The notes beneath the pieces were generated by a model, which was given only the letters and a program-made list of their open reading frames with translations, had not been told where the DNA came from and ran no database searches. A program made the translations under genes and the position numbers. Positions 3,926 through 47,923 of a stretch of DNA of 64,000 bases are shown here, in pieces; the first letter of the stretch is position 1, and the number at the start of each line of letters is the position of its first letter. This DNA is from Trypanosoma brucei (lineage: Eukaryota). The DNA lies in the NCBI GenBank assembly GCA_000002445.1, contig CH464491.1, positions 5,152,001 through 5,216,000 of the forward strand, read 5' to 3'.

Positions 3926-4377
3926 TTAAAGTACTATAATTTTATAATTATAGAGTGCAGCCAAACCCGTCAAAGCAGCAGCTATATTCATAGCCGATTT
4001 CTCATTGACAAGAAAAACTGGAAGAGCGGCACTCGGACTTGAGAAGCTTTCCCGTACCATCAACACGGTCAATTCATCAACATACTGCTTTCTGACCCGG
4101 TTTGGCATCCTTTTTTTTTTGCCTCACATGCTTTCTGGGATCGGTGTTTATTTTAATCTACCACAGTGCTTGTCTCTTTCGTTCCTGCTGCTGTATTTTC
4201 TGCTCCTGGTTTGGATTTGCATTCCTCTTTGTTGCCGTCATAATTGCAGTGCTCGCTTGGGCATTCGTCAGCTGTTGTGTTTTTTAGCTTGCATTTATTC
4301 TGTTCTTCTATTGTTGGATTGTTGCTTTTTTTTTTTTGCGGTGGATTTATGCCCGTGGTGATTATGGAGCCCTGCAT
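3926..4377 (-). pseudogene. VSG: VSG C-terminal fragment
   Basis: ORF 4153-4377 encodes a cysteine-rich VSG C-terminal domain (NKCKLKNTTADECPSEHCNYDGNKEECKSKPG). 3926-4108 carries a GPI-signal-like tail (SSPSAALPVFLVNEKSAMNIAAALTG). There is no N-terminal domain. Confidence 0.6.
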
Positions 4378-4619
4378 TAAGGTGCTTTACATCTGCTGCC
4401 GGAGCTGTTGCGGCATGGCAATGTGCACGCATTGGCCTGCTGACACACAAGTTAACTGCTCGCCGCACCCGACTGCTTTGGCCAGGCTGCTATGTCGGCT
4501 GGCTTTAGCCGCCAAACTCCATATTCTGCCCTTTCTAAATATTAAGATTGTTTTGCTAGCGCCCCTTGAAAGGAAAATTGTATACCGGAGCGAAACTGCC
4601 ACAAGCCAGCGTTTAAAAT

Positions 4620-4900
4620 AAATTTGAAGTCGCGCGCAGTGCAAAATGCAGAGATGAAATTCACCAAAGCAGAAAGAGTAACAAACACCACTGCGCGGGT
4701 AGTTTCTGAATATAAAAGGAGCCGCTGCATCACTGAAAAAATTAAAAAAAACAATGTGCTGCAAAAAAAAAAACAGAACAGCCGCTGTATCATTAAGAAA
4801 ATTGCAAAGAGAAGCAATCCAATACGGAAGAGCTGCGTAAAAAAAATGTAACCCTAACCAAGTAACCCTAACCCTAACCCTAACCATTCCTACCTACCCC
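4620..4900 (-). repeat. interstitial telomere-like block: (CCCTAA)4 plus degenerate GCCGCTGCATCACT-type short repeats
   Basis: 4851-4890 reads taaccctaaccaagtaaccctaaccctaaccctaacc. 4700-4800 carries repeated ggagccgctgcatcactgaaaaaa / cagccgctgtatcattaagaaaa units. Homologous blocks occur at 28270-28640 and 44700-45110. Confidence 0.75.
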
Positions 4901-5019
4901 CAACTTCCACAAAAACTCAAAAAAAAACGGGAAAAGAAAAAACAAATTAAGTTATCAGAAAATCAAAAAAATTACAGAATCAGACAGTCAATTTACAAAA
5001 ACAGTTCGATTTTTTCGGT

Positions 5020-5035
5020 TAAATTAAAGGTGTTA
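5020..5035 (-). promoter_or_regulatory. VSG 3'UTR conserved 16-mer (reverse complement gtgttaaaatatgtca)
   Basis: Matches the conserved VSG 3'UTR 16-mer TGATATATTTTAACAC with one mismatch, about 75 nt downstream of the VSG stop, followed by aagttttcaagtagcaa. Confidence 0.7.
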
Positions 5036-5106
5036 AAATATGTCAGAAGTTTTCAAGTAGCAAAAAATTTTAGAAAAATTAAAAAAAAAAATTGAGGGGG
5101 AAAAAT

Positions 5107-6651
5107 TTAAAAAAGCAAGGCCACAAATGCAGCAGAAACAATGCTGAGGGCGAATTTCTTGTTTAGGAGAATAGAGGAATCCTGGCACTTTCCTTCAATC
5201 CAACCGCAAACAGCGTTTTTGCCCTCCTTCTTTTTTCCTGGGGCCTTGGCGCATGTGTCGGGGTCCGTATACTGGCCACAATTAGGGTCTTCTGCCCCTC
5301 CTGCTGCTGCTGCTGTGTTTTCTGTTCCTGCTTTAGGTTTGCACTCGTTTTCCTTTTCGTCATGTTCGCAGCCAAGGCTTTTGCATTCTGTTGCGGTTTT
5401 CTTTGCTGTGTCGCTGCAGTTGCTGTTTGTCGGCTGTTTTTCCTCGGTCTTGTCTGCTTGCTGCTTTTGTTCCGAGGCTGGGCTGTGTCTTTCATCGGTG
5501 ATGGCTGCCGATTTTAGTGCGTAGGCTGTTTTCGCCGCTGCCGCTATGGTCTGCTCCACGGCTGCTAGTTTCGACAGAGCTTGTTCGTGTTCATGTAGCA
5601 GCTTGGCTGCTGTCTGCAGTTGGCTTAGCCATGGGTGAGTTGCTAGAGTTTCCAGTTCCTGCTTTGTTCCTGCTTTGTACATCACGCAGATGCCTTGGTT
5701 CGATTTCCCTGAGCAACCTGTTCCGGTGTAAAAGCCGTAGTAAGTGTCTTTGCCTTTCTGTTGGAATGCGTTGATTAATGCTGTTGCTTTTGCCTGTACT
5801 TCGGCTGCCGTGGCTGGCGTTTTGGGCGATGGTTGTGGGCACTTGCTTAGAAGATCTTTTAGAACTTGCTCCGGTGTGCTGCTCGGGTTGAATGCCGTTG
5901 ACGACTGACTGCTTTCGCAGAGCTTGTTGTTGTCGGTGCCGTCGACTCCGCAAACGCACAGCATAAACTGTGCTATTGTGTTTGCTTTGGCGTCAGTGTT
6001 TGGGGCTCCGCACAGCAATTGTCTGGTCGTTCCGGTGCCTCCCTGGCCTTTGCAGTCGGTGTCTTTCGCACCGGCGGGGGTAAAATCGTCACGGCCGTAG
6101 GCGGCGATCTTCAGCGCTTTGAGTGCATCGTTTGCTTTGTCCTTTTCGGGACCGGTCGCTAGTTGTGTGACGTGTTGCAGCGCTTGAAAAGCGTGTTCCG
6201 CTATCGGGTTTAGCTGCCTTCTGTAGTTTGCTAGCTGTTCTTCCGTTACGTCGGCCAGTCCCGCGGTCTGTAAAATCTGTCGTCTTGTATCGCTGTCTTT
6301 GACCGCGGCTGCTGCTTGTTTCCAGTACTCTTCTCTGGGGTCCGGAGCTGCTGGCTGTGCGGGTGCTGATGCGATCTGTTGTTTGTGCGCCGCTCCCTCG
6401 GTTTTGCTTGCGATTGTGTCGCGCCAACTCTGCGGTGCTACGGAGGCGTTGAGCTTCGCAATGGCCAGATAAGAAACCTGCGCTTGTGCATCTGTGATTT
6501 TTGCCGGAGCTGGTCGCTCTGCTAGGTTGACGAGCTCGCACAGCTGTCGGAAAAGGTGGCCGTGCTCGCCGTCGTCCGGGGCGCTGCTGGCCAGATAAGC
6601 TAGCGTCGCGACAATCGCAGATACTCGGATAAGGTAGCTTGTTTTGATCAT
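5107..6651 (-). CDS. VSG: variant surface glycoprotein, apparently intact (514 aa)
   Basis: Uninterrupted ORF with signal peptide MIKTSYLIRVSAIVATLAYLASSA, a cysteine-containing N-terminal domain and the canonical C-terminus [33 protein letters not shown]. Confidence 0.9.
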   Translation of the reverse strand: MIKTSYLIRVSAIVATLAYLASSAPDDGEHGHLFRQLCELVNLAERPAPAKITDAQAQVSYLAIAKLNASVAPQSWRDTIASKTEGAAHKQQIASAPAQPAAPDPREEYWKQAAAAVKDSDTRRQILQTAGLADVTEEQLANYRRQLNPIAEHAFQALQHVTQLATGPEKDKANDALKALKIAAYGRDDFTPAGAKDTDCKGQGGTGTTRQLLCGAPNTDAKANTIAQFMLCVCGVDGTDNNKLCESSQSSTAFNPSSTPEQVLKDLLSKCPQPSPKTPATAAEVQAKATALINAFQQKGKDTYYGFYTGTGCSGKSNQGICVMYKAGTKQELETLATHPWLSQLQTAAKLLHEHEQALSKLAAVEQTIAAAAKTAYALKSAAITDERHSPASEQKQQADKTEEKQPTNSNCSDTAKKTATECKSLGCEHDEKENECKPKAGTENTAAAAGGAEDPNCGQYTDPDTCAKAPGKKKEGKNAVCGWIEGKCQDSSILLNKKFALSIVSAAFVALLF

Positions 6652-6802
6652 TTCCTTTGTTTAGCCCTAGTGCGGATGGTTGATGGCAGACACCTTGTGT
6701 CGGCAAGGATTGCAACATATGCTGGTGGCTCTTGCGCCTGCATAAGTAAGGTGTTTTTTGGTTGCCTTTCTTCATTGCTTTGTGTAGGTCTTTGTTTATC
6801 TA

Positions 6803-7899
6803 TCACGTTTTATTAGCTTTAAACAAATACCCTTCTTTAAACGCGTCCCCACAAATTCTTTCATATCGAAAATGCCAATTCTCTCCGGACACTGCATAAG
6901 TTTCTATTTTCCCCATATCCTTCGAATTAAATTCTCCTCCTTTCAACCTTTTATACCAAGTAAGATTTTTCACAATTAACTTCGCTTTTTCCTCCCATGC
7001 AATAGGCTGTCCGGGAAAATGAATGAATGGGGCTTCTCCAATCACACCACTACTGGGAATAGTAAAAAATATCTCTTTATAATCCAATTCAATCATTCCT
7101 CTCTTCAAAACAAATCTCTGTCCAACAGCTTCCTCCTGTGTAACACTCCATATTAGCAATGGCGTATAGATACTCTGCTCTGACCACCACTCCTCGCTCC
7201 CTTTAAGCAATTCTCCAAAAGCATATTCAAATTTCTTAAATGCCCAAACTCTTGCGATTATATTACCACCTCCAAGGTAAGGTTTTCCGCTAGGAGGTGA
7301 TTTTAGTAAATGGGGTAATTTTTATCATATTCTTTTTGGTAACCAACATTAAAAAACCAAAAACATCTCTGTACATGCTCCTTGTGATCTGAGTTCATGA
7401 GCAAGTTCAACTGAGGAGCATAACACTCCGGAGTTGCTATAAATAAAATAGGGGAAATATGCTTCTCTTTTACTGTATCCTCTTCACTAAACTTCTCTTC
7501 ATTTTCCGCAGTATTTTGCATAAACTATTACACAGCATTCTCAGACTTCTGTTAACTAACAATAACATCAGATCCATCTGCAGTTATTACAATATTCTCA
7601 TCACTTGCATTCTGGTTTTCTAAAAATTCCATAATCAACTGCGGCCTCTTAACATGCTTATACAAACCTCCCATCGCAATTGAAATAATTTCAACATGGC
7701 TTAGTTTAGCACTCAATATGAGGATACACCATCCTTGTGTTGCGTGAGTTTGAACGGCAACCACAAATACTCTATGTTTCTTATTATTATTCTTTGTCAT
7801 ATTTGTTATGTTATTTGTCTCATTACCGTCATGAGATATTGAGTATAAACACACGAAGTGCAGAAAAGCCAGATAAAGCCCACATAAACTATATTTCAT
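6803..7899 (-). pseudogene. ESAG3-like pseudogene, signal-peptide protein family, tentative
   Basis: ORFs 7552-7899 (MKYSLCGLYLAFLHFVCLYSIS, signal peptide), 7303-7521 and 6803-7210 (WWSEQSIYTPLLIWSVTQEE...FIHFPGQPIAWEE...ICGDAFKEGYLFKANKT) are co-linear fragments of one gene of about 365 aa. A paralogous copy lies at 30731-31832. Assignment to ESAG3 rests on size, signal peptide and array context, not on remembered sequence. Confidence 0.4.
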
Positions 7900-8337
7900 T
7901 TGCTGATAAAACTTTAAAATTTAAATGGATTATGAGGAAAATTTAAAAAAAACTTATGAAAGAAGATTTAAGCCCAAGAAGAATTTTAAATTTCAACAAG
8001 ATTTGAACCTCAACTGCAAAACATACCACTCTTAATCTAAATGTAAAATCCAACCATTTAGCGTTGACAGTGGCCTCTACCATTGTAATTAATATAGAGA
8101 TCCCATAAGCCTTGCTTACTGGACTATATCTAAATCTTATTATCACATCCATAGTACCGTTTTTTATCATTATGTTGACTGTTTTTTTGTGTTTGAACTG
8201 GGCATAGTTTATTTCCTCTCTCCCTCTTCTCTGCCTCTCTTTTAAAAATATTTTTGTTCTGCCAAACAGTGCCATACCTACACCGCCACCTTGCTATTCT
8301 ATAAAGCGTGTCTGGTTTGTGTTTTCATATAGTTTTT

Positions 8338-8420
8338 ACTCCTCTTATTATTATATTCGTATATACACACTCACAACACTCTTCTATCATTTTGTCATTA
8401 TCTTTGTTATTATAACCCCA
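8338..8420 (-). repeat. 70-bp repeat, single degenerate unit
   Basis: tattatattcgtatatacacactcacaacac core plus a short TAA run. Confidence 0.8.
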
Positions 8421-8689: not shown

Positions 8690-9770
8690 ATGAAGCCCAG
8701 AAAAGTAGCAGTCATACTCAGAGCCAATTTCTTATTTAAATTAAAGCTACCATTACGGTTCTTTTCTGTTTCCTTTTCATCTTCACCATATTTTTCCTTT
8801 CTCCATGCACAATTTTGTTTGTCTCCTTTTTTGTCATTTTCACAAGCTGTCTTATCAGTGCCTTTCTTTGCACAACTAAATGCTCCTGCTGTCTCTATTT
8901 TTCCACCCGTTCTTGCAGATGCTCTCTACGGTTTTAGCTATGCACTATTTTTTGGTGTCACATTCGCAGCCCGCGGCTGTGCATCCTTCTGCTGTTTTGT
9001 TGGTGGCAGCCTTGCATTTATTCTGTTTTTCTGCTGTTGGTTGCTTGTTGACTGCTGTTTCGACTGAACTTTGAGCTCGTTCTAACAAATTTCTCAGCAT
9101 CAGAGCTACTATCATTTGTTGCTCCAGATCGTTTGCTGCACTTACCAACGCCGTCGCTTTCTGCGTTATATAATGTATTTCACCTAGCTTCGCGACTACT
9201 GTCCGCGCCGCTTCCACCAAAGGTATGCCAGTCTGGCTTCCCAGAAACTTCTTGTGGTTGACGCAGATGCCTTTGCTCGCCGCTCCTATTACATCCCTAT
9301 TACTTTGAGTATCAACGCAGTCTGGTTCTCCGTTGTGCAGTCCGTGTGCCACCAGAATTGTGTTTGATACGCTTCCCGATTGTGTTTGCGCGTTAGGGGC
9401 CGTTTCCGAGATTATCGCTCCTTTCCCTCGGCTGGCGAAGATTATGCTGATCTGATTTTCCACTGTTTGTGCGGTGAGCGCGGGGTCCTTTTCATTGATG
9501 CTTTTGATGCATTCGCCGTGTATTTTTGTTTTCCAGTCGTTGGCTGCAGCTGTTTGTGTGCCTCCTGTTGTTAGGCCGCTTAATGCCGCTGAGAAACAAA
9601 AGTTTGCCGTTTGACCCTTGCTTCCTTCGCATAGGCATACAATATTCGTTGCAAGGCAGCCGCCGCCTTTGCCCGGTTTGCCGTCCGCTGCTGATCCTGC
9701 GCAGGTGAATGAATGCTATACTGCTGCTAGCCACAGAAAATCGCTCTCCGCCGGCTATTTTGCCTAGGGT
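8690..9770 (-). pseudogene. VSG: VSG fragment (C-terminal two thirds), 5' end truncated at the ingi junction
   Basis: Translation running down from 9770 gives ...GGGCLATNIVCLCEGSKGQT...ATALVSAANDLEQQ...CECDTKK. A C-terminal-domain-like stretch with a hydrophobic tail (SFNLNKKLALSMTATFLGF) lies in another frame at 8700-8945. The sequence stops abruptly at the ingi 5' end. Confidence 0.65.
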
Positions 9771-9996
9771 CCCCTGGCGATGCCGGCCACCTCAACGTGG
9801 TGCCAGGGTCCAGTACCCCGTATCATCGGGGGAAGCCAAGAGCCAGCAGAGTTCCTTTCATGAGGAACACTGCTGTGCTCCGGCTACGGCATCATACAGC
9901 ACAGGGATCAGCAGCGTCTTGCTGGGACACCGTTCTTCATTTGTCGGTCCCTGGGCACGTGGCTAGCGTGCCATCAGCATTGTCACCCGCACTAAG

Positions 9997-10035
9997 ATGC
10001 TGCTGTCCGGTGATGTGGAAGAGAATCCCGGCCCG
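9997..10035 (+). other. 2A-like self-processing peptide MLLSGDVEENPGP at the ingi ORF N-terminus
   Basis: Exact D-x-E-x-NPGP motif, in the same frame as the downstream endonuclease and RT ORFs. An identical motif lies at 50988-51026 in copy 2. Confidence 0.8.
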
Positions 10036-10590
10036 TCGTTGCGCGGGATGCAGTGGAACTGCGCCGGGCTATTTTAAGGAAAGAGATTAGCACTCCACAA
10101 AACCCTTGTTGATGAGCGGATCGCCTTTTGTCTGTTGAGCGAGACAAGGATGACGCCTGGAGAGGCGGCTTGCTTTAGCGTTTCTGGCTACCAACATCAC
10201 GGAATAGCTCGTAACTGCAAAGGAGGTGGTGTATCAATACTAGTGAGGGGGGACCTACCAGTCGAGACCGGTATGGCCGTTGTTGGTCGCATTGAACAAG
10301 TGCATGCAACAATTCACCTTGCACGTGGAACGGCGCTGACTGTCACGTCGGCATACATCCCACCAAAACACACCTTCACGGCAACTGACCTAGATACGCT
10401 TCTGACAACTGACGGTGCCCAGCTCATCGGTGCAGACGCTAACGCACACGCGTTGGCATGGGATCGCGCGAGCCCACCAAATACCAAGGGTGAAACCCTC
10501 ACACAGTGATGCATTGACAATTAGTTTCTGGTCTGCAACACTGGTGAGTGCACCAGGTACGCGCGCCACCACGGGGAGTCCACCCCTGAT

Positions 10591-13500
10591 GTGACACTGT
10601 CAAGGAATTGCACAGTGTACACGTGGACATCGCTGTATTCTCCCGATAGCGATCACCATCACATATTTTTCGACGTTATCGTTGGAGACGACACAGATGC
10701 ACTGAGTTGCCCGCGGCTTCGAAAGCCCATGTACGCATGGCTAAAAGCTGACTGGAGGAATATCCGTCTCAAGGTTGACGAGCTCTGCAGGAAAATTAAT
10801 AGAGAGAAGAACGTCAACACCCTGGAACAGAAATTGAGCTTCGCCATCCGCATTGCGACGAAGGTCTCCGTCCCCCGTGGCTGCAGAGCAACGCCACCAC
10901 ATTGGACACCTGAGCTCGCGAAACTCGATGAAGAGATCGCTGGATGCGGACCCTCCCACCGAAGGGAAAAGTTTATAGCCACGCGTAAGCAGATCCTGGA
11001 CCGTACCACAAAGAAGAGATGGAGCACGCTATGCTCCAGACTTGCGGTGTCAGACCGCTGCAGTTGGCACATTGTCAAGAAGGTATATCCGCCACGACCA
11101 CTAACCACACCGGCTGTACTTGTTGATAACGCGGCCATCACGGACTACCGTCAAGCTGAGAGGTTCATTAAACTGTACTCGTCCCGCGCAAGAAGGTACC
11201 CCGACTCACACACACCGGCACCAATAAAGACGATAGAGAGTGAGTTCAGTCCCATCACGATGGCTGAACTACAGAGATCGATCAAACTGCTACCGAGTGG
11301 ATCCGCAGCCGGACATGATTGCTTATACAACGAGGCACTACAACATCTCGGTAGAACAGCGTTGAATGTTGTGCTGAGGCTATTCAATGAGAGCCTACGA
11401 ACGGGAGTCGTGCCGCCTGCATGGAAGACTGGTGTTATCATCCCCATCCTGAAGGCCGGAAAAAAGGCGGAGGACCTCGATTCTTACAGGCCTGTGACGC
11501 TCACGAGCTGTCTCTGCAAAGTCATGGAGCGCATAATTGCCGCGAGACTTAGAGACACTGTTGAGTCCCAGCTGACGCCGCAGCAATCAGGCTTTCGCCC
11601 CGGTTGCTCAACGCTCGAACAACTCCTGCACGTCCGCGCTGCCCTCCGCCGTCCCACGCACCAATCTCGTACGGGTGCTGTATTTGTCGACTACGAGAAG
11701 GCATTCGATACAGTAGACCACGACAAAATTGCGAGGGAAATGCACAGAATGAAGGTATCACCCCACATTGTGAAGTGGTGCGTATCATTTCTGAGTAACC
11801 GAACTGGCAGAGTGAGATTCAAGGAGAAGCTTTCCAGAAGCAGAACATTTGAGCGAGGAGTGCCACAAGGAACTGTCCTTGGCCCAATCATGTTCATTAT
11901 TGTCATGAACTCGTTGAGCCAACGCCTTGCAGAAGTGCCGTTACTGCAGCACGGATTCTTTGCAGACGACCTGACGCTACTTGCGAGGCACACAGAGAGG
12001 GATGTCATCAACCACACGCTGCAATGCGGCCTAAACGTGGTGTTACAGTGGTCAAAAGAGTACTTCATGTCTGTCAACGTAGCGAAAACAAAGTGCACAC
12101 TCTTCGGGTGTATAGAGCGTCACCCCCTTACATTACAACTGGACGGCGAAAGAATAGGAGCTGACAGGACACCGAAGCTTCTAGGAGTAACATTCCAGTG
12201 TCTGCAGGGGATGGCAACACATGCGGCCGAGACGAGACGCAAGATGGATTTCAGACTACTGCAGATAGCAGCCATCTCAGCTTCTACATGGGGGCCAAGA
12301 CGACAAGTACTGAGAGCTTTTTATCTAGCACTCGTACAGGCACACACCATGTATGGCATTGAGGTATGGTACTGGGACGCTTCGGAACGAAGTCGCGACC
12401 TCCTTGTATCAGCACAACACAAAGCCAGTCACATCATAGCCGGCATACCGCATGGGACGCGCAAAGAGGACTCTCTGCTGGAAGCAAACCTCCTGCCACT
12501 CAAGACGACCACTCTTGTGCGCAGCATGAAATTCATGCTGATGTGTGAGTCACGAGGCGGATGTTTGCGGCGCAGTGCTGAAGAAGTATACCACAGCAAA
12601 CACCCAGTCAGAGCCCTACATTCCCGCATCATGCGGTCCTATCCCCAACTCCGCATTGAGCCACGCGAGCACCCACTAGAGACATCGACGCTCCGCCACA
12701 GCTGCCGACCGATATTTCACACGCAGATAAAGCCTGTGTGCGCTGATGACCCTGACGATGTCAAAAGGGAGGCTTCCGAAAAGTGGATTGAACGGCATTT
12801 TGCACGGAGGGGGAAGGAGCCACCGCGGCGAGAGCACTACGAATTGTGGACTGATGGATCCGTGTCCCTCGGTGAGAAGTCCGGAGCAACTGCCCTGCTC
12901 TACAGAAGCAACACGCTGATTTGCGCACCCAAAACCGGAGCAGGGGAACTCTCATGCAGTTACAGAGCGGAATGCGTAGCATTAGAGATAGGACTGCAAC
13001 GGCTGCTGAAATGGCTTCCGGCATACAGAAGCACAACGAGCAGGTTGTCCATCTTCTCTGACTCGCTGTCAATGTTAACAGCACTGCAGACAGGCCCCCT
13101 AGCCGTAACGGACCCAATTCTAAGACGACTATGGAGGCTTCTGTTTCAAGTTCAGAGAAGGAAGATACGTATCCGACTGCAATTTGTGTTTGGCCATTGT
13201 GGCGTGAAACGGAATGAGGTTTGTGACGAAATGGCCAAAAAGGCCGCAGATTTACCACAGTTGCGAGACACATGGATCCCCAACATCATTGCTTATGCGA
13301 AGCGAGTGCTTAGGTCGGAAGAAGTCTATGAGAACACTCATAGGTTTGGTATCACGGGCAACCACTTTCCAACAAAACCTAAGAAAGAAGAACTGACGAG
13401 GGAGGAAGAAACGGCACTGGCACGCTTTCGGGTTGGGTCCTCAAGACACTATGGCTGGATGTTGCGAAAGATCAACCCGAGTGTGCCTCCACAGTGCCGA

Positions 13501-14757: not shown

Positions 14758-15589
14758 TAAACGAATAACAAAAATCAAAATAAAAGGATTGCTAATTCAC
14801 ATCTTTTGGAGAGTCCGGGGTGGGGGGTTTCTCGCCCCATCTGCTGTATTCCGTTCAACTGCGGAGCTACAACAAAAAATTATAGAGAGTGTGTTAGGCT
14901 GAATAAAAAAGGGAGACTCTGCCACAGTCGCCAGACCGATAGCATCTCAGGGCTCTACGGTGATGGCTGATGGCCGCGCCAGTGGGGGGAAACTCCCACG
15001 AAGGCACGAAGAAAATTTGAAAAATATTTCTGTGTCTTCGTCTTTTCCTTTTTTATTTTGTGTTTTTTCCGTCGGTGATGTAGAGATCGTTTTACCGGTA
15101 GATTTTGTAGGTACATACGCTCGGTTGCCGTTGTGATCTGTTTCGTAATACTTACAGCATGTATGCTTATTGTTATTATGATCATTTTTCCATTTGAGCG
15201 TTTAAAATTGCATATAATCAATAAACATTCCTGTTTTTATGTTAATCGTTATCACTAAATTAAGATTGTTACGAGTTCACTGTTGTTTACGTGCTTTTTT
15301 GTTCTATCATTCGATTTCTCCTGCTTCTTTTATAATTATATTAATATGTAATGAAAACACGCTCCTCTAATTATTACGGTTACTATATTATTATAACGCT
15401 ACACAATATCCACAAGGAAAATAAGTCATGTTCGAAAATGTTTTCTAATTTACACTTTATATGAAAAACTATTGATATTTATCAAGTGTGAGTAATTTTA
15501 GAAAGTTCTTTCAAAAACGAAAACTTTCATAGTTTCCACAATTTTCATATAATTTAGCAAAAATCTTTTAAAAATAATTCTTTAAAGTG

Positions 15590-17943: not shown

Positions 17944-17981
17944 TTATTATATTTGTATATACACTCTCACAACAAACTCCT

Positions 17982-18058
<77 letters not shown>

Positions 18059-18064
18059 TTTATC
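17944..18064 (-). repeat. 70-bp repeat with (TAA)n tract
   Basis: tatttgtatatacactctcacaacaaac core followed by about 25 ATT triplets. Confidence 0.85.
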
Positions 18065-27929: not shown

Positions 27930-28080
27930 AATTCAAGCAACAGAGGGGCATTAATCAAAGCAGAATTGCTTCCTGTGGAGCCTGTAGGGTTTCTATCATT
28001 TCCACCAGTTCACTTTTTTTTTTTACTTCCTTCTTTGTTTTCTTACTCAATGTGCACAGTTTACCCTAGACGGCTTTTGG
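27930..28080 (-). pseudogene. VSG: VSG C-terminal fragment (GPI-signal remnant)
   Basis: Reverse complement of 27940-27990 encodes TGSNSALINAPLLLE, of the same type as GSNSFVIHKAPLLIAVLLF. No upstream VSG body is present. Confidence 0.5.
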
Positions 28081-28269
28081 GTTAAAAACGTACCTCCGGA
28101 AGTCTAGCACCTTTGGATGGTGGGTGCCAAAGACAGAGTGTGTAGCTACTCCTTAGTTGCTTATTTTAATTAGCGGCTATCCCCTAAATATTAGTATATT
28201 TCCTTAATTTCCCCCTTTAAAAAACAAACCGCGTTCAAAACCATAGGACACGCGCCAGCTTTTTAAAAG

Positions 28270-28640
28270 AATTTAAGAGTCGCACAGCGCAAAATGCAGA
28301 GATGAAATTCACAAAAGTGTAAAAGTAAAATTATAACAAATCTGCAGAGAGGTTGAGTCGGCAAACTTAAGCAAAGATGTTTGTCGCGTAAATAAGGGTT
28401 GGGGTCCGCATAACAAAATAGCCGCTGCATGACTATAAGAATAAAAAAGCATCAACCAGGTACAAAAAAAGCATAATAAATCGTATCACCAGCGGCGGGG
28501 CACATAAAAAAAAAGGAGCCGCTGCATCACTAAAAGACTAAAAAAACAAAAAAAGAAAAGGAGAAAAAATTAACCCTAACACACTACCCCTAAGCATAAG
28601 CCGGAAAACCCCCTAACTAACTAACCTACCTACCCACAAA
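28270..28640 (-). repeat. interstitial telomere-like block (degenerate CCCTAA and AGGGTT hexamers plus GCCGCTGCATCACT short repeats)
   Basis: aaccctaacacactacccctaagcataagcc at about 28571. ataagggttggggtcc at about 28393. ggagccgctgcatcactaaaagactaaaaaaa and tagccgctgcatgactataagaataaaaaa units. The flanks are homologous to 4620-4900. Confidence 0.7.
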
Positions 28641-28759
28641 AACTCCAAAAAACGGGAAAAAGGAAAAAAATTTTAGTTGCCAGAAAAACACAAAATATTT
28701 TTACAGAGTCACAATTTTACAAACTTACAAAAACAGTTCAATTTTTTCGGGTAAGTTAC

Positions 28760-28775
28760 GTGTTAAAATATATCA
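28760..28775 (-). promoter_or_regulatory. VSG 3'UTR conserved 16-mer (reverse complement gtgttaaaatatatca)
   Basis: Exact reverse complement of TGATATATTTTAACAC about 60 nt downstream of the VSG stop, followed by aagttttcaaatagcaa. Confidence 0.75.
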
Positions 28776-28834
28776 AAAGTTTTCAAATAGCAAAAATTTT
28801 TAGCAAAAATTTAGCAAGAAAAATAGGGGAAAAT

Positions 28835-30265
28835 TTAGAAAAGCAACACTGCAATCAAAAGAGGAGCCTTGTGAATGACAAAAGAATTGCTTCCTGTGGT
28901 GTTTGTAGCTTTGGCATAATCCCCATTTTTCTTGTCGTCTTTGCTCTTTTTCGGAAAACATTTTGGCGTTTTGTTTTCATCCAAATAACAGCCTTCTTTT
29001 TGACAGTGTTCTGGGGTTGTTTGGCTTCCACATTGTTGTGGTTTTTGTGTGGAGGTCTCTGTTTTACAGCTAGGCTTGTTTTTTCTTTGAGAGGCATGGT
29101 ATGCTAAAACTAATCCTCTGTTAGTGTCGGTAGAAAGTTGTTCGATTTTGCTGTCAATGTCTGTTCCCGCTATTTTCTGCTTTACTGAGTTTGCCTTCAC
29201 CTTCTCCCATATCTTAGCATTGAATTCTGTCTCAGTGCCTCCGAACATGGCTTTTATGCCGTCTGTTATGGCTTTCTTTTGCGAATCACTGCTTGCGTCG
29301 TATTTGGCTGCCGGGCCTTGTAATTCTATCAGAACTGCTTTTCTCACGCCTTCGTCGTTTTGTACAACTGCCATGTTACGGACTGAGGCCATATCTGCGT
29401 CGCATGGTTTGTTTTTGAGAAAGTCGTAGAGGCGGTGTTCTATGCTCGTTTGGTGTTTCTCCAATTCTTTTTTTAGTCCTTGCGGTGTGTCTGAGCGTTT
29501 GGGCTTAGCGTCGGTTGTTTTCACCGCTAGCTGCGCAAGTTCTCCTGCCTTAAAAAGTGTTGCTGCCGCTGATGAAACTTTGATGTTGGTCTCGGCTGTG
29601 CTGCAGGCAGCGCCTACACATGCGACCTGGCAGACACCGGCGGCGGTGTCTGCGGTGGTTTTGCCTTCCAGTTTGTGTATTCTGATCGACTCTAGCTGCC
29701 GCGTGTCTGGGTCGTTATCTGTATTTGCCGCCGTCGCCGTGTATGTCTTTGCACATGAATCGTCGGTCAGTTTGTCCAGTTTTAGGTGACCTGAGACTGA
29801 CTGCCCTTGGCCGGTGTTTGACATCGCCTGAGCTGTCCCTGTCGCTGATTTGATTTCCGTTGCAGATGATAGCGCCAAGTTTTTGCCGGCTTCGATGTTG
29901 AGCGTTCGTGTTAGTTGGCTTACTGCTTGCGCGCACGTTACAGCCGCTTTTGCTAAAGTCGCTGTGCGCCTTGATGCGTATTCTGACAGCCCGGCTATTG
30001 CTGCGTTGGCTGCCCCCGTATCTGTTGTTGCTGCGTAGACCTCAAGCGCCCTGTGCTCATCTACCGCTTCCGTTGTTTTCTCCAGCAGACTCTTCAGTTT
30101 CCCCTCCGCTGCCGCAGCGAGCTTGATTAGGTAATGCGCCGATTTGCATGGCGTGTCTTGTTTTGTGAGTTCCGCTGCGGGGTCAGCTTGTGTGCCGCGA
30201 CTTAGCAGCAGTGTTGCCACAACTAAGCCAATAAAAGTCGCAATTATATTGCTAACTGCGGTCAT
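28835..30265 (-). CDS. VSG: variant surface glycoprotein, apparently intact (476 aa)
   Basis: Uninterrupted ORF with signal peptide MTAVSNIIATFIGLVVATLLLSRGTQA and a C-terminus ...CYLDENKTPKCFPKKSKDDKKNGDYAKATNTTGSNSFVIHKAPLLIAVLLF. Confidence 0.9.
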   Translation of the reverse strand: MTAVSNIIATFIGLVVATLLLSRGTQADPAAELTKQDTPCKSAHYLIKLAAAAEGKLKSLLEKTTEAVDEHRALEVYAATTDTGAANAAIAGLSEYASRRTATLAKAAVTCAQAVSQLTRTLNIEAGKNLALSSATEIKSATGTAQAMSNTGQGQSVSGHLKLDKLTDDSCAKTYTATAANTDNDPDTRQLESIRIHKLEGKTTADTAAGVCQVACVGAACSTAETNIKVSSAAATLFKAGELAQLAVKTTDAKPKRSDTPQGLKKELEKHQTSIEHRLYDFLKNKPCDADMASVRNMAVVQNDEGVRKAVLIELQGPAAKYDASSDSQKKAITDGIKAMFGGTETEFNAKIWEKVKANSVKQKIAGTDIDSKIEQLSTDTNRGLVLAYHASQRKNKPSCKTETSTQKPQQCGSQTTPEHCQKEGCYLDENKTPKCFPKKSKDDKKNGDYAKATNTTGSNSFVIHKAPLLIAVLLF

Positions 30266-30730
30266 TTAAGTCCTTTCGGCTCTTTCTGTTTTTGCGTTGG
30301 TGGTGGTTTCCGCTCTTTATTTTGCACTCCTTCTTTTGCTTTTGCCTAGAGTTGAGTGTTTAGTCAGGTATAAAGCCAACTGTGTGAAAAGTGTGACAGA
30401 CGTTTTGTCGATATTATGTTTAATTTCGCAATTGTGCTCGGCGGTTGCGGCGTAACAATAAATTGAGGTTTTTACGTCAGTTACCTTTCTCCGTTTCAAA
30501 CTCGCTCCTTGTGTATTCCATCTGTCGCTTATTTCCCAAAAGAGACACTATATGCATTAAAAGCATAAACATGTTGTGAAATAAACTTTTTCGATACCAC
30601 TGGGTTGGGAAATTGTCTGGTCGCACCTGTTGTGATATTGCAAGAGATGCAAGAATTCTCCGAAGAGTGTATTAAAAACTATAAGCCGCACTTTGCGCCG
30701 CCGTTAGTCAGTTGTATTCGGTGCTTCGTC

Positions 30731-31832
30731 TCACAATTTCTTTGCTTTAAACAAATCCCCGTTTTTGAAAGCATCGCCACAAATTTTCTCATATACAAGG
30801 CTTAAATATTTTCCATTTATTGTATAGACTTCTGTCGCCCCTAAGTTAGAAATAGTAAAATTAGATTTATTGAAATTTCTGTAACAACCGAGGTGCTGGA
30901 ACAGCTGCTTTGCAAACTCCCGCCATGCCAGTGCGATGCCAGGGAAGTGGATGAAAGGCGCATTTCCAGGTACTGGCGCGGTCGGCACCGAAAAAAATCT
31001 CTCGTTATAGTCCAAGGAAATCAAACCCCTGCGTAAAATAAATCTTTTACTGATGCTTCCTTCCTGAGTTACGCTCCACAACCACAAAGGCATGAAAATA
31101 CTTTGATCAGACCACCAGTCGTCACTTGTTTTCAATAACTCATTAAATGCTACGTTTAAGCTCCTGAATGCCCAAACTCTTGCGATTATATTACCACCTC
31201 CAAGGTAAGGTTTTCCGCTAGGAGGTGATTTTAGTAAATGGGGTAATTTTTTATCCTCCTCTTTTTGGTAACCAACATTAAAAAGCCAGTAGCATCTCTC
31301 CACATGTTCTTTGTGATCTGAATTAATAAGCAAATCCAATTGAGGTGCTGTGCAATCTGGGGTTGTGATAAACTGAACCGGAGATATTTGATTTTCTTTA
31401 ACTATTTCATCTTCCCTAAACTTACCTTCATTTGCCGCAGTATTATGTATAAAATATTCCACCGCATTTTCATATTTTTCTCTGTCAGAAACAATAACAT
31501 TAGATCCGCCTGAATGAATTACAATATCCTCATCACTGCCATTCTGTCATTATAAATATTGCATAACCCACCTAGTTCCTCTTAACATGGCTGTACAAAC
31601 CTCCTATTGCAATTGTAGTAATTTCAACATGGCTTAGATTGGCGCTCAGTATGAGTCTGCACCATCCTTGAGTTGCATGAGTTTGAACTGCAACGACAAA
31701 GACCCTTGGGTCCTTACGGTCTGTCTTTGTCATATTTGTTATTCTATTTGGCTCATCCCCATCAAGAGACATTGAGCCTAAACACACGAAATGCAGAAAA
31801 GACAAATAAAGTTCACATAAACTATATTTCAT
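30731..31832 (-). pseudogene. ESAG3-like pseudogene, paralogue of 6803-7899, tentative family assignment
   Basis: 31572-31832 (MKYSLCELYLSFLHFVCLGSMS...) and 30731-31462 (...DWWSDQSIFMPLWLWSVTQEG...FIHFPGIALAWREFAK...ICGDAFKNGDLFKAKKL) are co-linear with the 6803-7899 copy but not in one continuous frame. Confidence 0.4.
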
Positions 31833-32254
31833 TTCTTAATATGACTTTAAAATTTGAATGCATTATGAGGAAAAATGAAAAAAACTTAGGAAAGAAGTGA
31901 GCAGCACAACGTATATTTTTATTTTCGATAAGTTTAAAAATTCAATTTCAAAACACACCTTGTTGTATCTAAAGTAAAACATCAACATTTAGCGGTGTCA
32001 GTTGCTTATCCACATATACCAAAGATAGAAATTTCATAAGGCTTCTTCACTAGACTATGTCTAAATCTTATGATCACAATTATCATACCTTTTGGTATCA
32101 TCATAACCACACTTATTTATGTGTTTAAAACTGCGTATATTTTATTTCTCCGCTCCCTCTGTGTCTTTCTTTTAATAATATTCTTGACCTTCCAAACGGT
32201 CACATACTTACACCGCAACCTTGTTATTGTATAAAGCGTGTCTGGTTTTTATTA

Positions 32255-32323
32255 TCATCTACATTATTATAATTACTACTCTCATTATAATATTCGTATA
32301 TGCACACTCACAACACTTTCCTA

Positions 32324-32378
<55 letters not shown>

Positions 32379-32380
32379 TT
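32255..32380 (-). repeat. 70-bp repeat with (TAA)n tract
   Basis: ctcattataatattcgtatatgcacactcacaacac core followed by about 22 ATT triplets. Confidence 0.85.
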
Positions 32381-34909: not shown

Positions 34910-34934
34910 GATACACACTCACAACACTCTTCTA

Positions 34935-34999
<65 letters not shown>

Positions 35000-44700: not shown

Positions 44701-45110
44701 GCAGCGCCATAGGCCACGCACCAGGGTCTTAAAAAAAAGTTTGAAGCCTGTCCCTACGAAAAGTGCAGAAGCGAAACTCTCGAAAGCTACAAGAGTATAA
44801 TTGTAACAATGTGGGGATTAAATGAATATGAGAAAAATTTAAGCGAAGATGGCTGCCGTCCAAATAAGGGTTAGGGTTTCACCAAAAAGAGAGCTACTGT
44901 GCCACTGAAAAAAAATTAAATTAAAAAATGGGTCGATGTGAAGATGGAAATTTAAGCTGCAGATGTAAACGTGAACAAAAATGTCTGCTGCGTCAATAAG
45001 GGTTAAGGCCACATCTAAAAAAAAAGGACAAAATCATGACGGGTCACTGGTAGTAGAAAACAAGAAAAAATAAAAATAATAACCCTAACCCTAACCCTAA
45101 ACCTAAGCCT
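44700..45110 (-). repeat. interstitial telomere-like block (CCCTAA x3, TAAGGGTTAGGG, subtelomere-like short repeats)
   Basis: aaccctaaccctaaccctaaacctaagcc at 45081-45109. gtccaaataagggttagggtttcacc at about 44858. gtcaataagggttaaggccac at about 44990. Confidence 0.7.
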
Positions 45111-45215
45111 GGAAAACTTCCCTAACGTACCTCCTTCCTACCTTTTTTGTTTGCTGTACAAAAAAAATTCAAAAAGAAAAAAAAGGATAAAAATTTTCAG
45201 CTATCAGAAAAAAAT

Positions 45216-46930
45216 TTACAGATTTAGACAGCTTAACAAAAATATTACCGGGATATTTTTACGTGTTAAAATATACCAAACAACAAAATTCTTTAAGAAA
45301 GGGAGGGGGAAAAATTTAAAAAGAAAGGCCGCAAATGCAGAAACCATGAGGGCTAATTGCTTTTCTGCTAGAAAACTGGAGGAGCGGCAACCAGGAGTTA
45401 CTGGACCCTGACCATCAATATAGGTAATCCATCCACAAAAGTCTTTCTTTCCTTGGGGGATCGGGCCAGTTTTTTGGCGCAATTCTTAGAATTTTTGTGC
45501 GGCAGAGCACTTATCTTTTCCCCCTGAAGCTCCTTCTCCTTCTCCTGCTGCTGTGTCTTCTGTTCTATCTTTAGGTTTGCATTTGTTCTCTTTTCATCGT
45601 AATTGCATTTGTTTTTAGGGCATAACTTCTGATTTCCATTGTGCTCGGCACAAAGCTCCGCTGCCTGTTGATCTGACTGTGTCTTTGCTCCAGTTGTTTT
45701 GGGGAAAACAGCTTTGTTGGTTTTCATAGCGTTTATGTTTTCTATTGCCTCCGCTATTGCATATTGTAGTTGATCGTCGTTAATTTGAAACAGTTTTTTG
45801 GTTTGTTTTGTGTTGCCCTGCGTCGGTACCTCCGCGTTTATGGCTTTGATCGCCATTATGTAACCGCCTTCTTCGTTATCTGCGTTGACTTCGAAAAAAC
45901 TTTTAACTAGTTCGTCTGCGTTGTTTGCCTCAGCTGCCGCTTGCCACGCCTGCGCCTTCTGTGCAGCTGTTGCCAGTGCTGCCCGAGTTGTTCTGTCTTT
46001 TAGTAGGCCCTTTACTGCCGTTTCGTCCGTTGGTGTTTTTGTTACTGCTTGCCGCAGCTTGTTTGCTACTGCAGCGCGCTTTTCGCTGAGCGCCTTGAGA
46101 AGGTTATTTGTGACTGCGGCCGTGTGTATCGATGGCATGTTCTGGAAGTCTCCAGCAGCTGCTACCTGTATTAGTCCGTTTAGTGGGTGTATTGGCTGCG
46201 TTACACTGCTGTATGCTGTGTTTGGGTTTTCCGATATTCGGCATTTTGGTGCAGCTGCTCCGGTTGTTTCAGGGATTCCTGTGTCTTGAAGGGTTGTTTT
46301 GATTTCGGTTGCCAGATCTGTGATAACTGCTGTTAGTGTTGTCGTGTCTGCCGTGCCGCACTTTGTGTCAACGATTTTAGCTGCAGCGTTGCCGTCGTTG
46401 TCACCGCCAATGCACCCATTTTGTGCTGTTGGTGTCGTTTGTTGGTGGTTTTGCAGTAAGTGCATCAGTTCATCGACACGGCCTGAAGCGTACATTGCTT
46501 GTCCTACTATTTTGGTGTTCTCGCCTTCCCAGTTGACGAGGTTGCTGGTCGCTTCGTCTAGGTTTGTCGCCGCATACAGCTTGAACGTTTCTGCTGCAAG
46601 CTTCAGCGCCGGCATTTTTAGTGCTGCTAGCGAATGCTGAAGGTACGCGTGCTTGGCGGTGATCACTGCATCTTTGCCATGCTTGATCGAGTCTGCTAGG
46701 GACGCGGCTAAGGCCTTGGCTTTGGACGAAAAGGCACATAACTTTGTCCCAACACTGGCTTTGATTGGGCGTTTGTCGGTCGCGCCTTCGATACCGGTCG
46801 GCAGCGCAAGGACTAGAGCCACTAGTCTCGCCTGTTTGCTGCTCCGCTGTCGCCAGTTGTTAATGCTTTTTCGCTCCACGTCGTCTTTTCCGGCATGTTG
46901 GGCTAGTTCAGTGCCTGTGACTGCAAACAT
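45216..46930 (-). pseudogene. VSG: VSG pseudogene (C-terminal frameshift; aberrant N-terminus)
   Basis: The 510-aa ORF 45398-46930 holds the signal peptide core ARLVALVLALPTGIEGA but lacks a proper initiator just upstream, and ends ...LPILMVRVQ*. The GPI signal SSSFLAEKQLALMVSAFAAFLF is read in another frame at 45216-45482. Confidence 0.75.
45264..45279 (-). promoter_or_regulatory. VSG 3'UTR 16-mer-like element (reverse complement gtgttaaaatatacca)
   Basis: 15 of 16 positions match the reverse complement of TGATATATTTTAACAC, downstream of the VSG C-terminus. Confidence 0.55.

Positions 46931-47684: not shown

Positions 47685-47923
<239 letters not shown>

What the first reader, a model, noticed from the sequence alone, without database searches (positions are those of the whole stretch)
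6652..8420. Paralogous ESAG3-like pseudogene placed between the 70-bp repeat and the VSG, duplicated with a second cassette at 30266-32380
Two units in this window share the layout 70-bp repeat, ESAG3-like pseudogene, VSG, telomere-like block. They share about 1.6 kb of flank, with the ESAG-like gene at 6803-7899 versus 30731-31832 and the pre-70-bp segment at 8283-8340 versus 32221-32260. The two VSG ORFs are unrelated (514 and 476 aa, with different C-terminal classes). Conserved flanks around swapped VSG ORFs are what a cassette uses as recombination homology. Pairing an ES-associated gene remnant upstream with telomere hexamers downstream suggests that both cassettes derive from expression-site or telomere-like loci rather than from classical array units.
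Basis: partly seen in the sequence, partly recalled or inferred. Interest (0 to 1): 0.6.

Follow-up and report, generated by a model that had tools for sequence, protein, structure and literature searches.

The report
Decayed ESAG3 genes inside VSG cassettes
Two silent trypanosome surface-antigen (VSG) gene cassettes each carry a broken copy of the expression-site gene ESAG3 between their upstream 70-bp repeat and the VSG; this is real but is an already described, ordinary feature of Trypanosoma brucei subtelomeres.

Summary
The window is a head-to-tail T. brucei-group VSG array on the minus strand. In two of about 15 cassettes an ESAG3 pseudogene lies between a single 70-bp repeat unit and the VSG: 7899-6803 and 31832-30731. 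Both match bloodstream expression-site (BES) ESAG3 over the full length (E=1.5e-143; 80% and 61% aa identity; about 30% to GRESAG3-type relatives). Both carry stop codons and a frameshift.

The shared flank is mosaic:
- 8413-7239 matches 32351-31167 at about 77% identity.
- That stretch ends in an 85-bp perfect block.
- The ESAG3 3' part is only 59% identical.
- The ESAG3-VSG spacer and the VSG ORFs are unrelated.
- Homology resumes at the last VSG codons and runs through the 3'UTR, a short TTAGGG block and about 350 bp beyond.

No other pair of upstream flanks in the window shares more than 30 bp.

The expression-site or telomere origin is only partly supported. TTAGGG blocks and ESAG3 pseudogenes also occur separately, in a third cassette here and in a locus from another genome.

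ESAG3 pseudogenes in VSG arrays, and "ESAG3 pseudogene 3' of the 70-bp repeat" in BES7 and BES15, are published. Low interest.

The parts
8333..8413 (-). Cassette 1: single 70-bp repeat unit, the upstream boundary of homology with cassette 2
   Evidence: 70-bp core AGAGTGTTGTGAGTGTGT at 8365-8382. 85% identical to the cassette 2 unit. BLAST hits to the other 70-bp units of the window.
7900..8332 (-). Cassette 1: spacer between the 70-bp repeat and the ESAG3 start codon (ESAG3 5' flank), found only in the two ESAG3 cassettes
   Evidence: 74% identical to 31833-32262. No other match in the window.
6803..7899 (-). Cassette 1: ESAG3 pseudogene (copy 1). 365 codons colinear with the 368-aa ESAG3, with three in-frame stops and a 1-nt deletion near 7324.
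   Evidence: tblastn against ESAG3 P0001: aa 197-367 at 87.7%, aa 1-202 at 67.5%. 80% identity to the BES consensus overall. Lesions.
7239..7323 (-). 85-bp block perfectly identical to 31167-31251. Similarity between the two copies drops from 78-96% to 59% directly 3' of it, marking a recombination junction or conversion patch.
   Evidence: The expected longest run at 77% identity is about 21 nt; P(run >= 85) is about 6e-8.
6652..6802 (-). Cassette 1: ESAG3-VSG intergenic region, not conserved with cassette 2
   Evidence: 37% identity in the global alignment, i.e. unrelated.
5107..6651 (-). Cassette 1: intact VSG ORF, 514 aa, B-type N-terminal domain plus Trypan_glycop_C
   Evidence: Pfam VSG_B 6.2e-72 and Trypan_glycop_C 3.1e-20. 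92% identical to T. brucei VSG S5G7S3. Best PDB match is 6ELC, E=3e-45.
4605..5106 (-). Cassette 1: shared 3' flank. It holds the 3'UTR with the 16-mer (5030-5045), a TTAGGG block (4848-4886, starting 221 nt after the stop codon), two AGTGATGCAGCGGCT motifs and a GTGAATTTCATCTCTGCATTTTGC element.
32263..32380 (-). Cassette 2: single 70-bp repeat unit with an expanded TAA/TAT tract (32322-32377)
31833..32262 (-). Cassette 2: spacer / ESAG3 5' flank homologous to 7900-8332
30731..31832 (-). Cassette 2: ESAG3 pseudogene (copy 2). It has a 1-nt insertion near 31577 and two in-frame stops. Both aspartates of the catalytic DXXD motif are lost (D110G, D113N). The 3' part (31166-30731) is a divergent outlier.
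   Evidence: E=1.5e-143 to ESAG3. About 61% identity to BES ESAG3. Catalytic positions, with residue roles taken from bioRxiv 10.64898/2026.01.27.701950. The 3' part has no nucleotide match to L001, whereas copy 1 does.
30266..30730 (-). Cassette 2: ESAG3-VSG intergenic region, unrelated to that of cassette 1
28835..30265 (-). Cassette 2: intact VSG ORF, 476 aa, A-type, unrelated to the cassette 1 VSG
   Evidence: Pfam Trypan_glycop 2.4e-07. BLASTP against the cassette 1 VSG gives E=0.85.
28254..28834 (-). Cassette 2: shared 3' flank. It holds the 16-mer (28760-28775), a degenerate TTAGGG block (28574-28616, starting 219 nt after the stop codon), two AGTGATGCAGCGGCT-type motifs and the GTGAATTTCATCTCTGCATTTTGC element.
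45050..45397 (-). Comparison cassette without ESAG3: the same 3'-flank family, with a TTAGGG block at 45083-45125 behind VSG 45398-46930
   Evidence: No ESAG3 is present there.

Best explanation
These are two old, decayed members of the subtelomeric ESAG3 lineage (Fam53, ESAG3 sensu stricto). Each sits in the 'co-transposed' stretch between the 70-bp repeat and the VSG of an otherwise ordinary silent array cassette, and neither makes a protein.

The two cassettes descend from one ancestral cassette type: 70-bp unit, about 430-bp spacer, ESAG3, VSG, 3'UTR, short TTAGGG block, conserved downstream module. That ancestry is inferred.

The middle of the unit differs between the two. It runs from ESAG3 codon ~225, just after the 85-bp identical block, to the last codons of the VSG. 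A gene-conversion or crossover event with one end inside ESAG3 and the other at the VSG 3' end would leave exactly this pattern. The pattern is shown; the event is inferred.

Because the pseudogene lies downstream of the 70-bp repeat, it would be copied along with the VSG when such a cassette is duplicated into an expression site. That would account for the published 'ESAG3 pseudogene 3' of the 70-bp repeat' in BES7 and BES15 (inferred). It can also serve as an occasional extra stretch of homology to other ESAG3 copies.
For: Identity as ESAG3:
- Full-length colinear match to ESAG3 at E=1.5e-143.
- The hit cluster holds the Lister 427 BES ESAG3 proteins.
- 80% and 61% identity to the BES consensus, against about 30% to GRESAG3-type representatives.

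Pseudogene status:
- Stops and frameshifts in both copies.
- DXXD motif lost in copy 2.

Common ancestry of the 5' module:
- The 70-bp junction, the spacer and a distinctive N-terminus (MKYSLC.LYL.FLHFVCL) are shared by the two copies. They are 28/38 identical to each other there, but each only about 14/38 to BES ESAG3.

Shared 3' module:
-. The motif AGTGATGCAGCGGCT occurs only in these two flanks.

Mosaic structure:
- 78%, then 100% over 85 bp, then 59%; then unrelated spacer and VSGs; homology resumes 11 nt before the VSG stop codon.
- Copy 1, BES ESAG3 and L001 agree in the 3' part, while copy 2 is the outlier.

Ordinary array context:
- About 15 VSG genes or pseudogenes, with 70-bp units and two ingi elements.
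- A further ESAG3 pseudogene lies directly upstream of a VSG in an array of another genome, L001 from GCA_003543875.1.

Literature:
- ESAG3 'is also in VSG arrays' (PMC3607257).
- Most subtelomeric ESAG3 copies are pseudogenes (PMC6152948).
- Recombination breakpoints in BESs coincide with ESAG3 loci, and BES7 and BES15 carry an ESAG3 pseudogene behind the 70-bp repeats (PMC2567434).
Against: - Only two copies are available, so the ancestral-cassette model is not phylogenetically tested.
- No BES ESAG3 nucleotide sequence could be obtained. It is therefore unknown whether the spacer 7900-8332 is simply the normal ESAG3 5' flank everywhere, or whether the 85-bp block is also identical in BES copies.
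- At the protein level, over aa 41-200, copy 1 is closer to BES ESAG3 (about 82%) than to copy 2 (about 70%). The c1-c2 link therefore rests mainly on the 5' end, the flanks and the 85-bp patch. It could be shared ancestral state rather than a specific duplication.
- The direction of transfer between arrays and expression sites is undetermined.
Confidence: 0.75

Rival explanations
1. One reading: both cassettes were moved into the array from a bloodstream or metacyclic expression site or another telomere. The ESAG3 remnant and the TTAGGG hexamers are the scars of that origin.
For: - The layout 70-bp / ESAG3 pseudogene / VSG / telomere exists at BES7 and BES15 (PMC2567434).
- The TTAGGG blocks are in the telomeric orientation relative to the VSG.
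- They start 219-221 nt after the stop codon. The published BES VSG-to-telomere distance is 200-1590 nt.
- Both ESAG3 cassettes have a block, against 1 of about 13 others (Fisher p = 0.029).
Against: - The features are separable. Window cassette 45398-46930 and L001 VSG 13499-15063 have the block without ESAG3. The L001 ESAG3-VSG cassette has no block.
- The block is followed by a conserved module, present in cassettes 1 and 2 and in L001. In all three window cassettes a VSG C-terminal remnant then follows, so the block is not a terminal scar.
- The blocks of cassettes 2 and 3 share the same interruption (GTTTTCC.GGCTTA), which implies inheritance.
- The 5' end of both pseudogenes differs strongly from BES ESAG3.
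- About 76% identity means any such event was ancient.
- There is a single 70-bp unit and normal array neighbours.
Confidence: 0.3
2. Two independent captures of ESAG3 fragments at similar positions. The shared flank is only family-level ESAG3 similarity, not a duplicated cassette.
For: - Over aa 41-200, copy 1 is nearer to BES ESAG3 than to copy 2, and the 3' parts are only 59% identical.
- ESAG3 pseudogenes are abundant in subtelomeres.
- In L001 an ESAG3 pseudogene sits next to a VSG with a different upstream junction.
Against: - Homology continues 430 bp beyond the ESAG3 start codon up to, and including, the same junction with a 70-bp unit.
- The 3' flanks of the two VSGs are also each other's best match in the window, and they share private motifs.
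Confidence: 0.1
3. The genes are functional ESAG3-like glycosyltransferase genes, and the apparent lesions are sequencing errors.
For: - The copy 1 frameshift lies in an A-run, a typical error site.
- Copy 1 keeps D110, D113, W242, E244, Q245 and H297.
Against: - Copy 1 has three in-frame stop codons and copy 2 has two. These are substitutions, not homopolymer errors.
- Copy 2 has lost both metal-binding aspartates, and D110N alone abolishes activity in the preprint.
Confidence: 0.02

Closest known systems
ESAG3 pseudogene downstream of the 70-bp repeats in T. brucei Lister 427 BES7 (VSG 427-3) and BES15 (VSG 427-11), Hertz-Fowler et al. 2008 (PMC2567434)
   Same: Same order of elements: 70-bp repeat, ESAG3 pseudogene, VSG, TTAGGG. 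The VSG-to-TTAGGG distance here (219-221 nt) is at the lower end of the BES range (200-1590 nt).
   Different: - Here the units are internal array cassettes with one 70-bp unit.
- They have 3-4 degenerate hexamers instead of a telomere.
- More cassettes follow downstream.
- Sequence identity to the BES7 and BES15 copies could not be tested, because no BES DNA is available in the tools.
Subtelomeric ESAG3 pseudogenes of VSG arrays (Fam53, ESAG3 sensu stricto; PMC6152948, PMC3607257, PMC4766357)
   Same: Same family, same pseudogene state, same array location. An independent example next to a VSG was found in L001 (GCA_003543875.1).
   Different: Nothing essential. The specific details are the 70-bp/spacer junction shared by the two copies, and the 85-bp identical patch with a breakpoint.
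Functional BES ESAG3, a GT-A fold O-glucosyltransferase acting on VSG (bioRxiv 10.64898/2026.01.27.701950)
   Same: - Colinear 365-367 codons at 61-80% identity.
- A weak GT_PLOD Pfam hit (E=0.047, below the curated cut-off), in line with the preprint's LH3/PLOD3 similarity.
- Copy 1 retains the catalytic residues.
   Different: - Both copies are interrupted.
- Copy 2 lacks the DXXD aspartates.
- The N-terminal 40 residues differ from BES ESAG3.
- Neither lies in an expression site.
Classical silent VSG array cassette (70-bp repeat, co-transposed region, VSG, conserved 3'UTR 16-mer)
   Same: 70-bp unit upstream, 16-mer TGATATATTTTAACAC in the 3'UTR, head-to-tail arrangement with neighbours.
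   Different: The co-transposed region is 1.7-2.0 kb and is occupied by an ESAG3 pseudogene. In the other cassettes of the window it is 0.75-1.1 kb of unique sequence.

Membership tests
ESAG3 (Fam53, ESAG3 sensu stricto) | Full-length sequence similarity to expression-site ESAG3 proteins | tested here: met
   E=1.5e-143 to the cluster that contains the Lister 427 BES ESAG3s. tblastn covers aa 1-368 for both copies. Identity to the BES consensus is 80% and 61%.
ESAG3 (Fam53, ESAG3 sensu stricto) | Closer to ESAG3 than to the GRESAG3 / ESAG3-like lineage | tested here: met
   Full-length representatives outside the ESAG3 cluster are only about 28-33% identical. No tree was built.
ESAG3 (Fam53, ESAG3 sensu stricto) | Intact ORF of about 368 aa | tested here: not met
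   Copy 1 has 3 stops and a 1-nt deletion. Copy 2 has 2 stops and a 1-nt insertion. Both are pseudogenes.
ESAG3 (Fam53, ESAG3 sensu stricto) | GT-A catalytic residues (D110/D113 DXXD, W242, E244/Q245, H297) | tested here: inconclusive
   Copy 1 keeps all of them. Copy 2 has D110G, D113N and E244D (residue roles). This is irrelevant to function because both frames are broken.
ESAG3 (Fam53, ESAG3 sensu stricto) | Location inside a Pol I-transcribed telomeric expression site, upstream of the 70-bp repeats | tested here: not met
   Both copies lie downstream of a single 70-bp unit inside an array, with further cassettes on both sides.
Silent VSG array cassette | 70-bp repeat upstream of the VSG | tested here: met
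   Cores at 8365-8382 and 32302-32319.
Silent VSG array cassette | VSG ORF with recognised N-terminal domain type | tested here: met
   VSG_B 6.2e-72 and Trypan_glycop 2.4e-07.
Silent VSG array cassette | Conserved 3'UTR 16-mer | tested here: met
   TGACATATTTTAACAC at 5030-5045 and TGATATATTTTAACAC at 28760-28775.
Bloodstream/metacyclic VSG expression site | Terminal position with a long TTAGGG telomere tract directly after the VSG | tested here: not met
   There are only 3-4 degenerate hexamers. They are followed by a conserved module, a VSG C-terminal remnant and the next cassette.
Bloodstream/metacyclic VSG expression site | Other ESAGs and long 70-bp repeat arrays upstream | tested here: not met
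   All large ORFs scanned are VSGs or ingi. There are only two ESAG3 matches in the window and single 70-bp units.
Bloodstream/metacyclic VSG expression site | ES promoter | not tested
   No reliable promoter model was available in the tools.

The most novel reading that the evidence does not exclude
ESAG3-VSG dyads in arrays may be relics of an ancestral arrangement in which the gene for the VSG-modifying glucosyltransferase lay directly upstream of the VSG. Examples are the two cassettes here, L001, and BES7 and BES15. On this reading they still act as an alternative upstream homology tract for gene conversion into expression sites. VSGs carrying them would then have a distinct activation route or rank in the switching hierarchy. 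The conserved TTAGGG-plus-downstream module would mark how arrays grew from chromosome ends.
Probability: 0.15. Interest if true: 0.45.

Novelty: already known. Interest (0 to 1): 0.15.

Why it matters
It matters little beyond annotation. It gives a clean example of how non-VSG passengers ride inside VSG cassettes. It also shows that ESAG3 sequences act as recombination junctions outside expression sites as well: there is a sharp breakpoint next to an 85-bp identical patch. ESAG3 was reported in a 2026 preprint to be the VSG O-glucosyltransferase. A genome-wide look at the recurrent ESAG3-VSG adjacency, and at the conserved TTAGGG-containing 3' module, could therefore say something about how the silent archive was built. 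The two loci themselves are ordinary.

Tried and rejected
- Pfam has no ESAG3 family. The only hit was a sub-threshold GT_PLOD match for copy 1.
- A PDB sequence search with ESAG3 found nothing.
- Exact-protein look-ups found nothing on record for the two window VSGs or for the ESAG3 proteins P0001, P0010 and P0009. The source assembly of the window and BES nucleotide sequences could therefore not be obtained, and the comparison with BES7 and BES15 DNA could not be done.
- Marcello & Barry 2007 (tried as PMC1950903) is not held. Searches for literature on degenerate telomere repeats behind array VSGs gave nothing specific.
- L003 (T. b. gambiense FN554968) and L004 (GCA_000227395.2) carry divergent ESAG3-like fragments. 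L003 lies among ISG65/75- and ESAG1-family genes with one short VSG-type ORF. Neither was analysed further.
- The hexamers at 22623-22640 were rejected as a telomere block because they lie inside VSG-like coding sequence.
- The 166-aa ORF 4387-4887, which spans the TTAGGG block, has no family hit and is treated as spurious.
- I first read copy 1 as the recombinant, because its 3' half is BES-like. The comparison with L001 shows that the 3' part of copy 2 is the outlier.
Full report
WHAT THE WINDOW IS

The 64-kb window is a head-to-tail array of VSG genes and pseudogenes on the minus strand.
- Pfam finds A-type or B-type VSG domains in the large minus-strand ORFs.
- Seventeen 70-bp-repeat cores, all on the minus strand, punctuate the array.
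- VSG 3'UTR 16-mers follow several genes.
- Two ingi-type retroelements lie on the plus strand, with RVT_1, RNase H and zinc-finger domains.
- The best match of the VSG at 5107-6651 is a T. brucei VSG (S5G7S3, 92% identity). The sequence is therefore from the T. brucei group.
- The exact source was not found.

CHECK OF THE OBSERVATION

Between the VSG start at 6651 and the 70-bp unit at 8333-8413 lies a 1097-nt ESAG3-like frame (7899->6803). Between the VSG start at 30265 and the 70-bp unit at about 32263-32380 lies a second one (31832->30731).

A conceptual translation of copy 2 hits one protein cluster at E=1.5e-143. Its members are the ESAG3 proteins of the Lister 427 bloodstream expression sites and of T. 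b. gambiense. tblastn of ESAG3 against the window finds exactly these two places and no others.

Both copies are pseudogenes:
- Copy 1 has three in-frame stops and a 1-nt deletion in an A-run near 7324.
- Copy 2 has a 1-nt insertion near 31577 and two in-frame stops.
- Copy 2 has also lost both aspartates of the DXXD metal-binding motif (D110G, D113N). Copy 1 retains all catalytic positions named in the 2026 preprint, which identifies ESAG3 as a GT-A O-glucosyltransferase acting on VSG.

In a search of 1.84 billion cluster representatives, full-length relatives outside the ESAG3 cluster are only about 30% identical. Both copies therefore belong to ESAG3 sensu stricto, not to GRESAG3.

The two VSG ORFs are unrelated: 514 aa B-type and 476 aa A-type, BLASTP E=0.85.

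TTAGGG blocks in the VSG sense lie at 4848-4886 and 28574-28616. They start 221 and 219 nt after the stop codons.

ANATOMY OF THE DUPLICATION

BLASTN aligns 7064-8413 with 30992-32351 at 75.8% over 1366 nt. A global alignment shows that the homology is mosaic:
- Upstream of the 70-bp unit the sequences are unrelated.
- The 70-bp unit is 85% identical.
- The spacer 8332-7900 is 74% identical.
- The ESAG3 5' part is 78% identical.
- An 85-bp stretch is perfectly identical (7323-7239 = 31251-31167).
- The last 436 bp of ESAG3 are 58.7% identical.
- The ESAG3-VSG spacers are unrelated.

At 77% identity the expected longest perfect run is about 21 nt. The next longest runs observed are 25 and 21 nt. 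The probability of an 85-nt run is about 6e-8.

Protein comparisons:
- The first 40 residues are shared by the two copies (28/38) but differ from BES ESAG3 (about 14/38).
- Over residues 200-368, copy 1 is about 90% identical to BES ESAG3.
- Over the same residues, copy 2 is only about 50% identical to either.

A third ESAG3 pseudogene from another genome (L001, below) aligns with copy 1 through the whole 3' part, but with copy 2 only up to the breakpoint. The 3' part of copy 2 is therefore the outlier.

Homology between the cassettes resumes 11 nt before the VSG stop codons. It then runs through:
- the 3'UTR;
- the TTAGGG block;
- two AGTGATGCAGCGGCT motifs, which are found nowhere else in the window;
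- a GTGAATTTCATCTCTGCATTTTGC element.

The pieces are 4841-5118 vs 28564-28846 (75%), 4714-4750 vs 28511-28546 (92%) and 4605-4669 vs 28254-28317 (83%).

The two units thus share both flanks. They differ in a central segment of 2.1-2.3 kb, made up of the ESAG3 3' part, the spacer and the VSG.

ARE THE FLANKS SPECIAL?

An all-against-all comparison of the regions between the 70-bp repeat and the VSG start was made for twelve cassettes. No pair other than this one shares more than about 30 bp, which is the edge of the 70-bp unit. This pair shares 1380 aligned bases.

The other cassettes with a clear VSG start have 0.75-1.1 kb of unique sequence in this position.

THE EXPRESSION-SITE / TELOMERE INFERENCE

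For the inference:
- The layout is the one reported for BES7 ('ESAG3 pseudogene 3' of 70-bp repeat') and BES15.
- The orientation of the TTAGGG blocks fits a telomere.
- Their distance from the VSG fits the published BES range of 200-1590 nt.

Against it as a specific signature:
1. A third cassette (VSG 45398-46930) has the same 3'-flank family and a TTAGGG block at 45083-45125, but no ESAG3.
2. Locus L001 is an array in NCBI assembly GCA_003543875.1, reached through an ESAG3-fragment ORF.
- In L001 an ESAG3 pseudogene truncated at codon 74 lies about 235 bp upstream of a VSG whose 3' flank has no TTAGGG block.
- The neighbouring L001 VSG, which has no ESAG3, is followed by about 14 TTAGGG repeats at the homologous position.
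3. The sequence beyond the block does not look like a chromosome end.
- A conserved module follows it in cassettes 1 and 2 and in L001.
- In all three window cassettes a degenerate VSG C-terminal remnant then follows.
4. The blocks of cassettes 2 and 3 share the same interruption (GTTTTCC.GGCTTA), which points to descent from a common sequence rather than independent telomere capture.
- I cannot exclude that telomeric junctions themselves share this sequence.

With 15 cassettes, the association of ESAG3 with a block is nominal (2/2 versus 1/13, p = 0.029). L001 weakens it further.

MOST LIKELY EXPLANATION

These are two ancient paralogues of the subtelomeric ESAG3 pseudogene lineage, riding as passengers in the co-transposed region of array VSG cassettes. 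Both cassettes derive from one cassette type.

The central part has been exchanged by recombination, with one junction in ESAG3 next to the 85-bp identical patch and the other at the VSG 3' end. The VSG 3' end is the classical downstream boundary of VSG gene conversion (established knowledge).

This agrees with the published remark that recombination breakpoints in expression sites coincide with ESAG3 loci.

A cassette of this type copied from its 70-bp repeat into an expression site would produce the BES7/BES15 arrangement. The published discussion likewise attributes extra sequences behind the 70-bp repeats to incoming cassettes. The opposite direction of transfer is equally compatible with my data.

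At about 76% identity the two flanks are poor substrates for recombination with each other today. That judgement rests on my own knowledge of the homology dependence of T. brucei recombination.

COMPARISON WITH WHAT IS KNOWN, AND VERDICT

All of the following are already in the literature:
- ESAG3 in VSG arrays (PMC3607257).
- The prevalence of pseudogenic ESAG copies in subtelomeric arrays (PMC4766357).
- The statement that most subtelomeric ESAG3 copies are pseudogenes (PMC6152948).
- ESAG3 pseudogenes behind the 70-bp repeats of two BESs (PMC2567434).

The only added details are the mosaic structure with the 85-bp patch, and the evidence that the TTAGGG block belongs to a conserved 3' module that is independent of ESAG3. 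Interest is low.

Noticed in passing
window 7239-7323 and 31167-31251: An 85-bp perfectly identical block sits inside two ESAG3 pseudogenes that are otherwise 59-78% identical. Similarity collapses directly on its 3' side, and the copy 1 frameshift lies at its 5' edge. It looks like a short gene-conversion patch or recombination junction.
   Followed up: partly
window 4605-4886, 28254-28616, 44800-45125; L001 15270-15700 and 16478-16560: The short TTAGGG blocks behind some array VSGs are part of a conserved module. Upstream lies a GGTAGG-type lead-in. Downstream, in cassettes 1 and 2 and in L001, lie AGTGATGCAGCGGCT motifs and a GTGAATTTC...ATTTTGCGC element. AACCCTTATT-type motifs occur in cassettes 2 and 3 and in L001. 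In L001 the tract is about 14 repeats long. What this module is, and how it relates to array growth from chromosome ends, is unexplained.
   Followed up: partly
window about 4000-4330, 27920-28060, 44350-44560: Each of the three TTAGGG blocks is followed, about 0.4-0.6 kb further on, by a degenerate VSG C-terminal-domain or GPI-signal remnant before the next 70-bp repeat. It looks as if a telomere-type cassette had been joined onto a truncated resident VSG.
   Followed up: partly
window about 9772-14760 and about 50764-55760 (+ strand): Two ingi-type retroelements are 96-98% identical, on the strand opposite to the VSGs. The first has a 1388-aa ORF (RT, RNase H, zinc finger). In the second the ORF is split into 664 and 437 aa. 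The first is flanked by VSG fragments (8945-9463 and 14900-15022), which suggests insertion into a VSG pseudogene.
   Followed up: partly
window 21411-21572 and 24506-24667: A 162-nt stretch, 99% identical, is repeated 3.1 kb apart. It overlaps VSG C-terminal fragments of two neighbouring cassettes and is much more similar than anything else between cassettes.
   Followed up: no
window 47716-47922 (also 17981-18063, 34933-35024, 32322-32377): The TAT/TAA triplet tracts of the 70-bp repeats vary strongly in length, from about 19 to 69 copies.
   Followed up: no
window 5107-6651: This intact B-type VSG is 92% identical to a deposited T. brucei VSG protein (S5G7S3, 519 aa). No exact copy of it or of the VSG at 28835-30265 is on record in the protein and contig collections, so the source strain or assembly of the window remains unidentified.
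   Followed up: partly
L001 9568-12600 (NCBI GCA_003543875.1, CM010678.1): An ESAG3 pseudogene truncated at codon 74 is fused directly behind a VSG C-terminal remnant and lies about 235 bp upstream of a VSG pseudogene. This is a second, independent kind of ESAG3-VSG adjacency in an array.
   Followed up: partly
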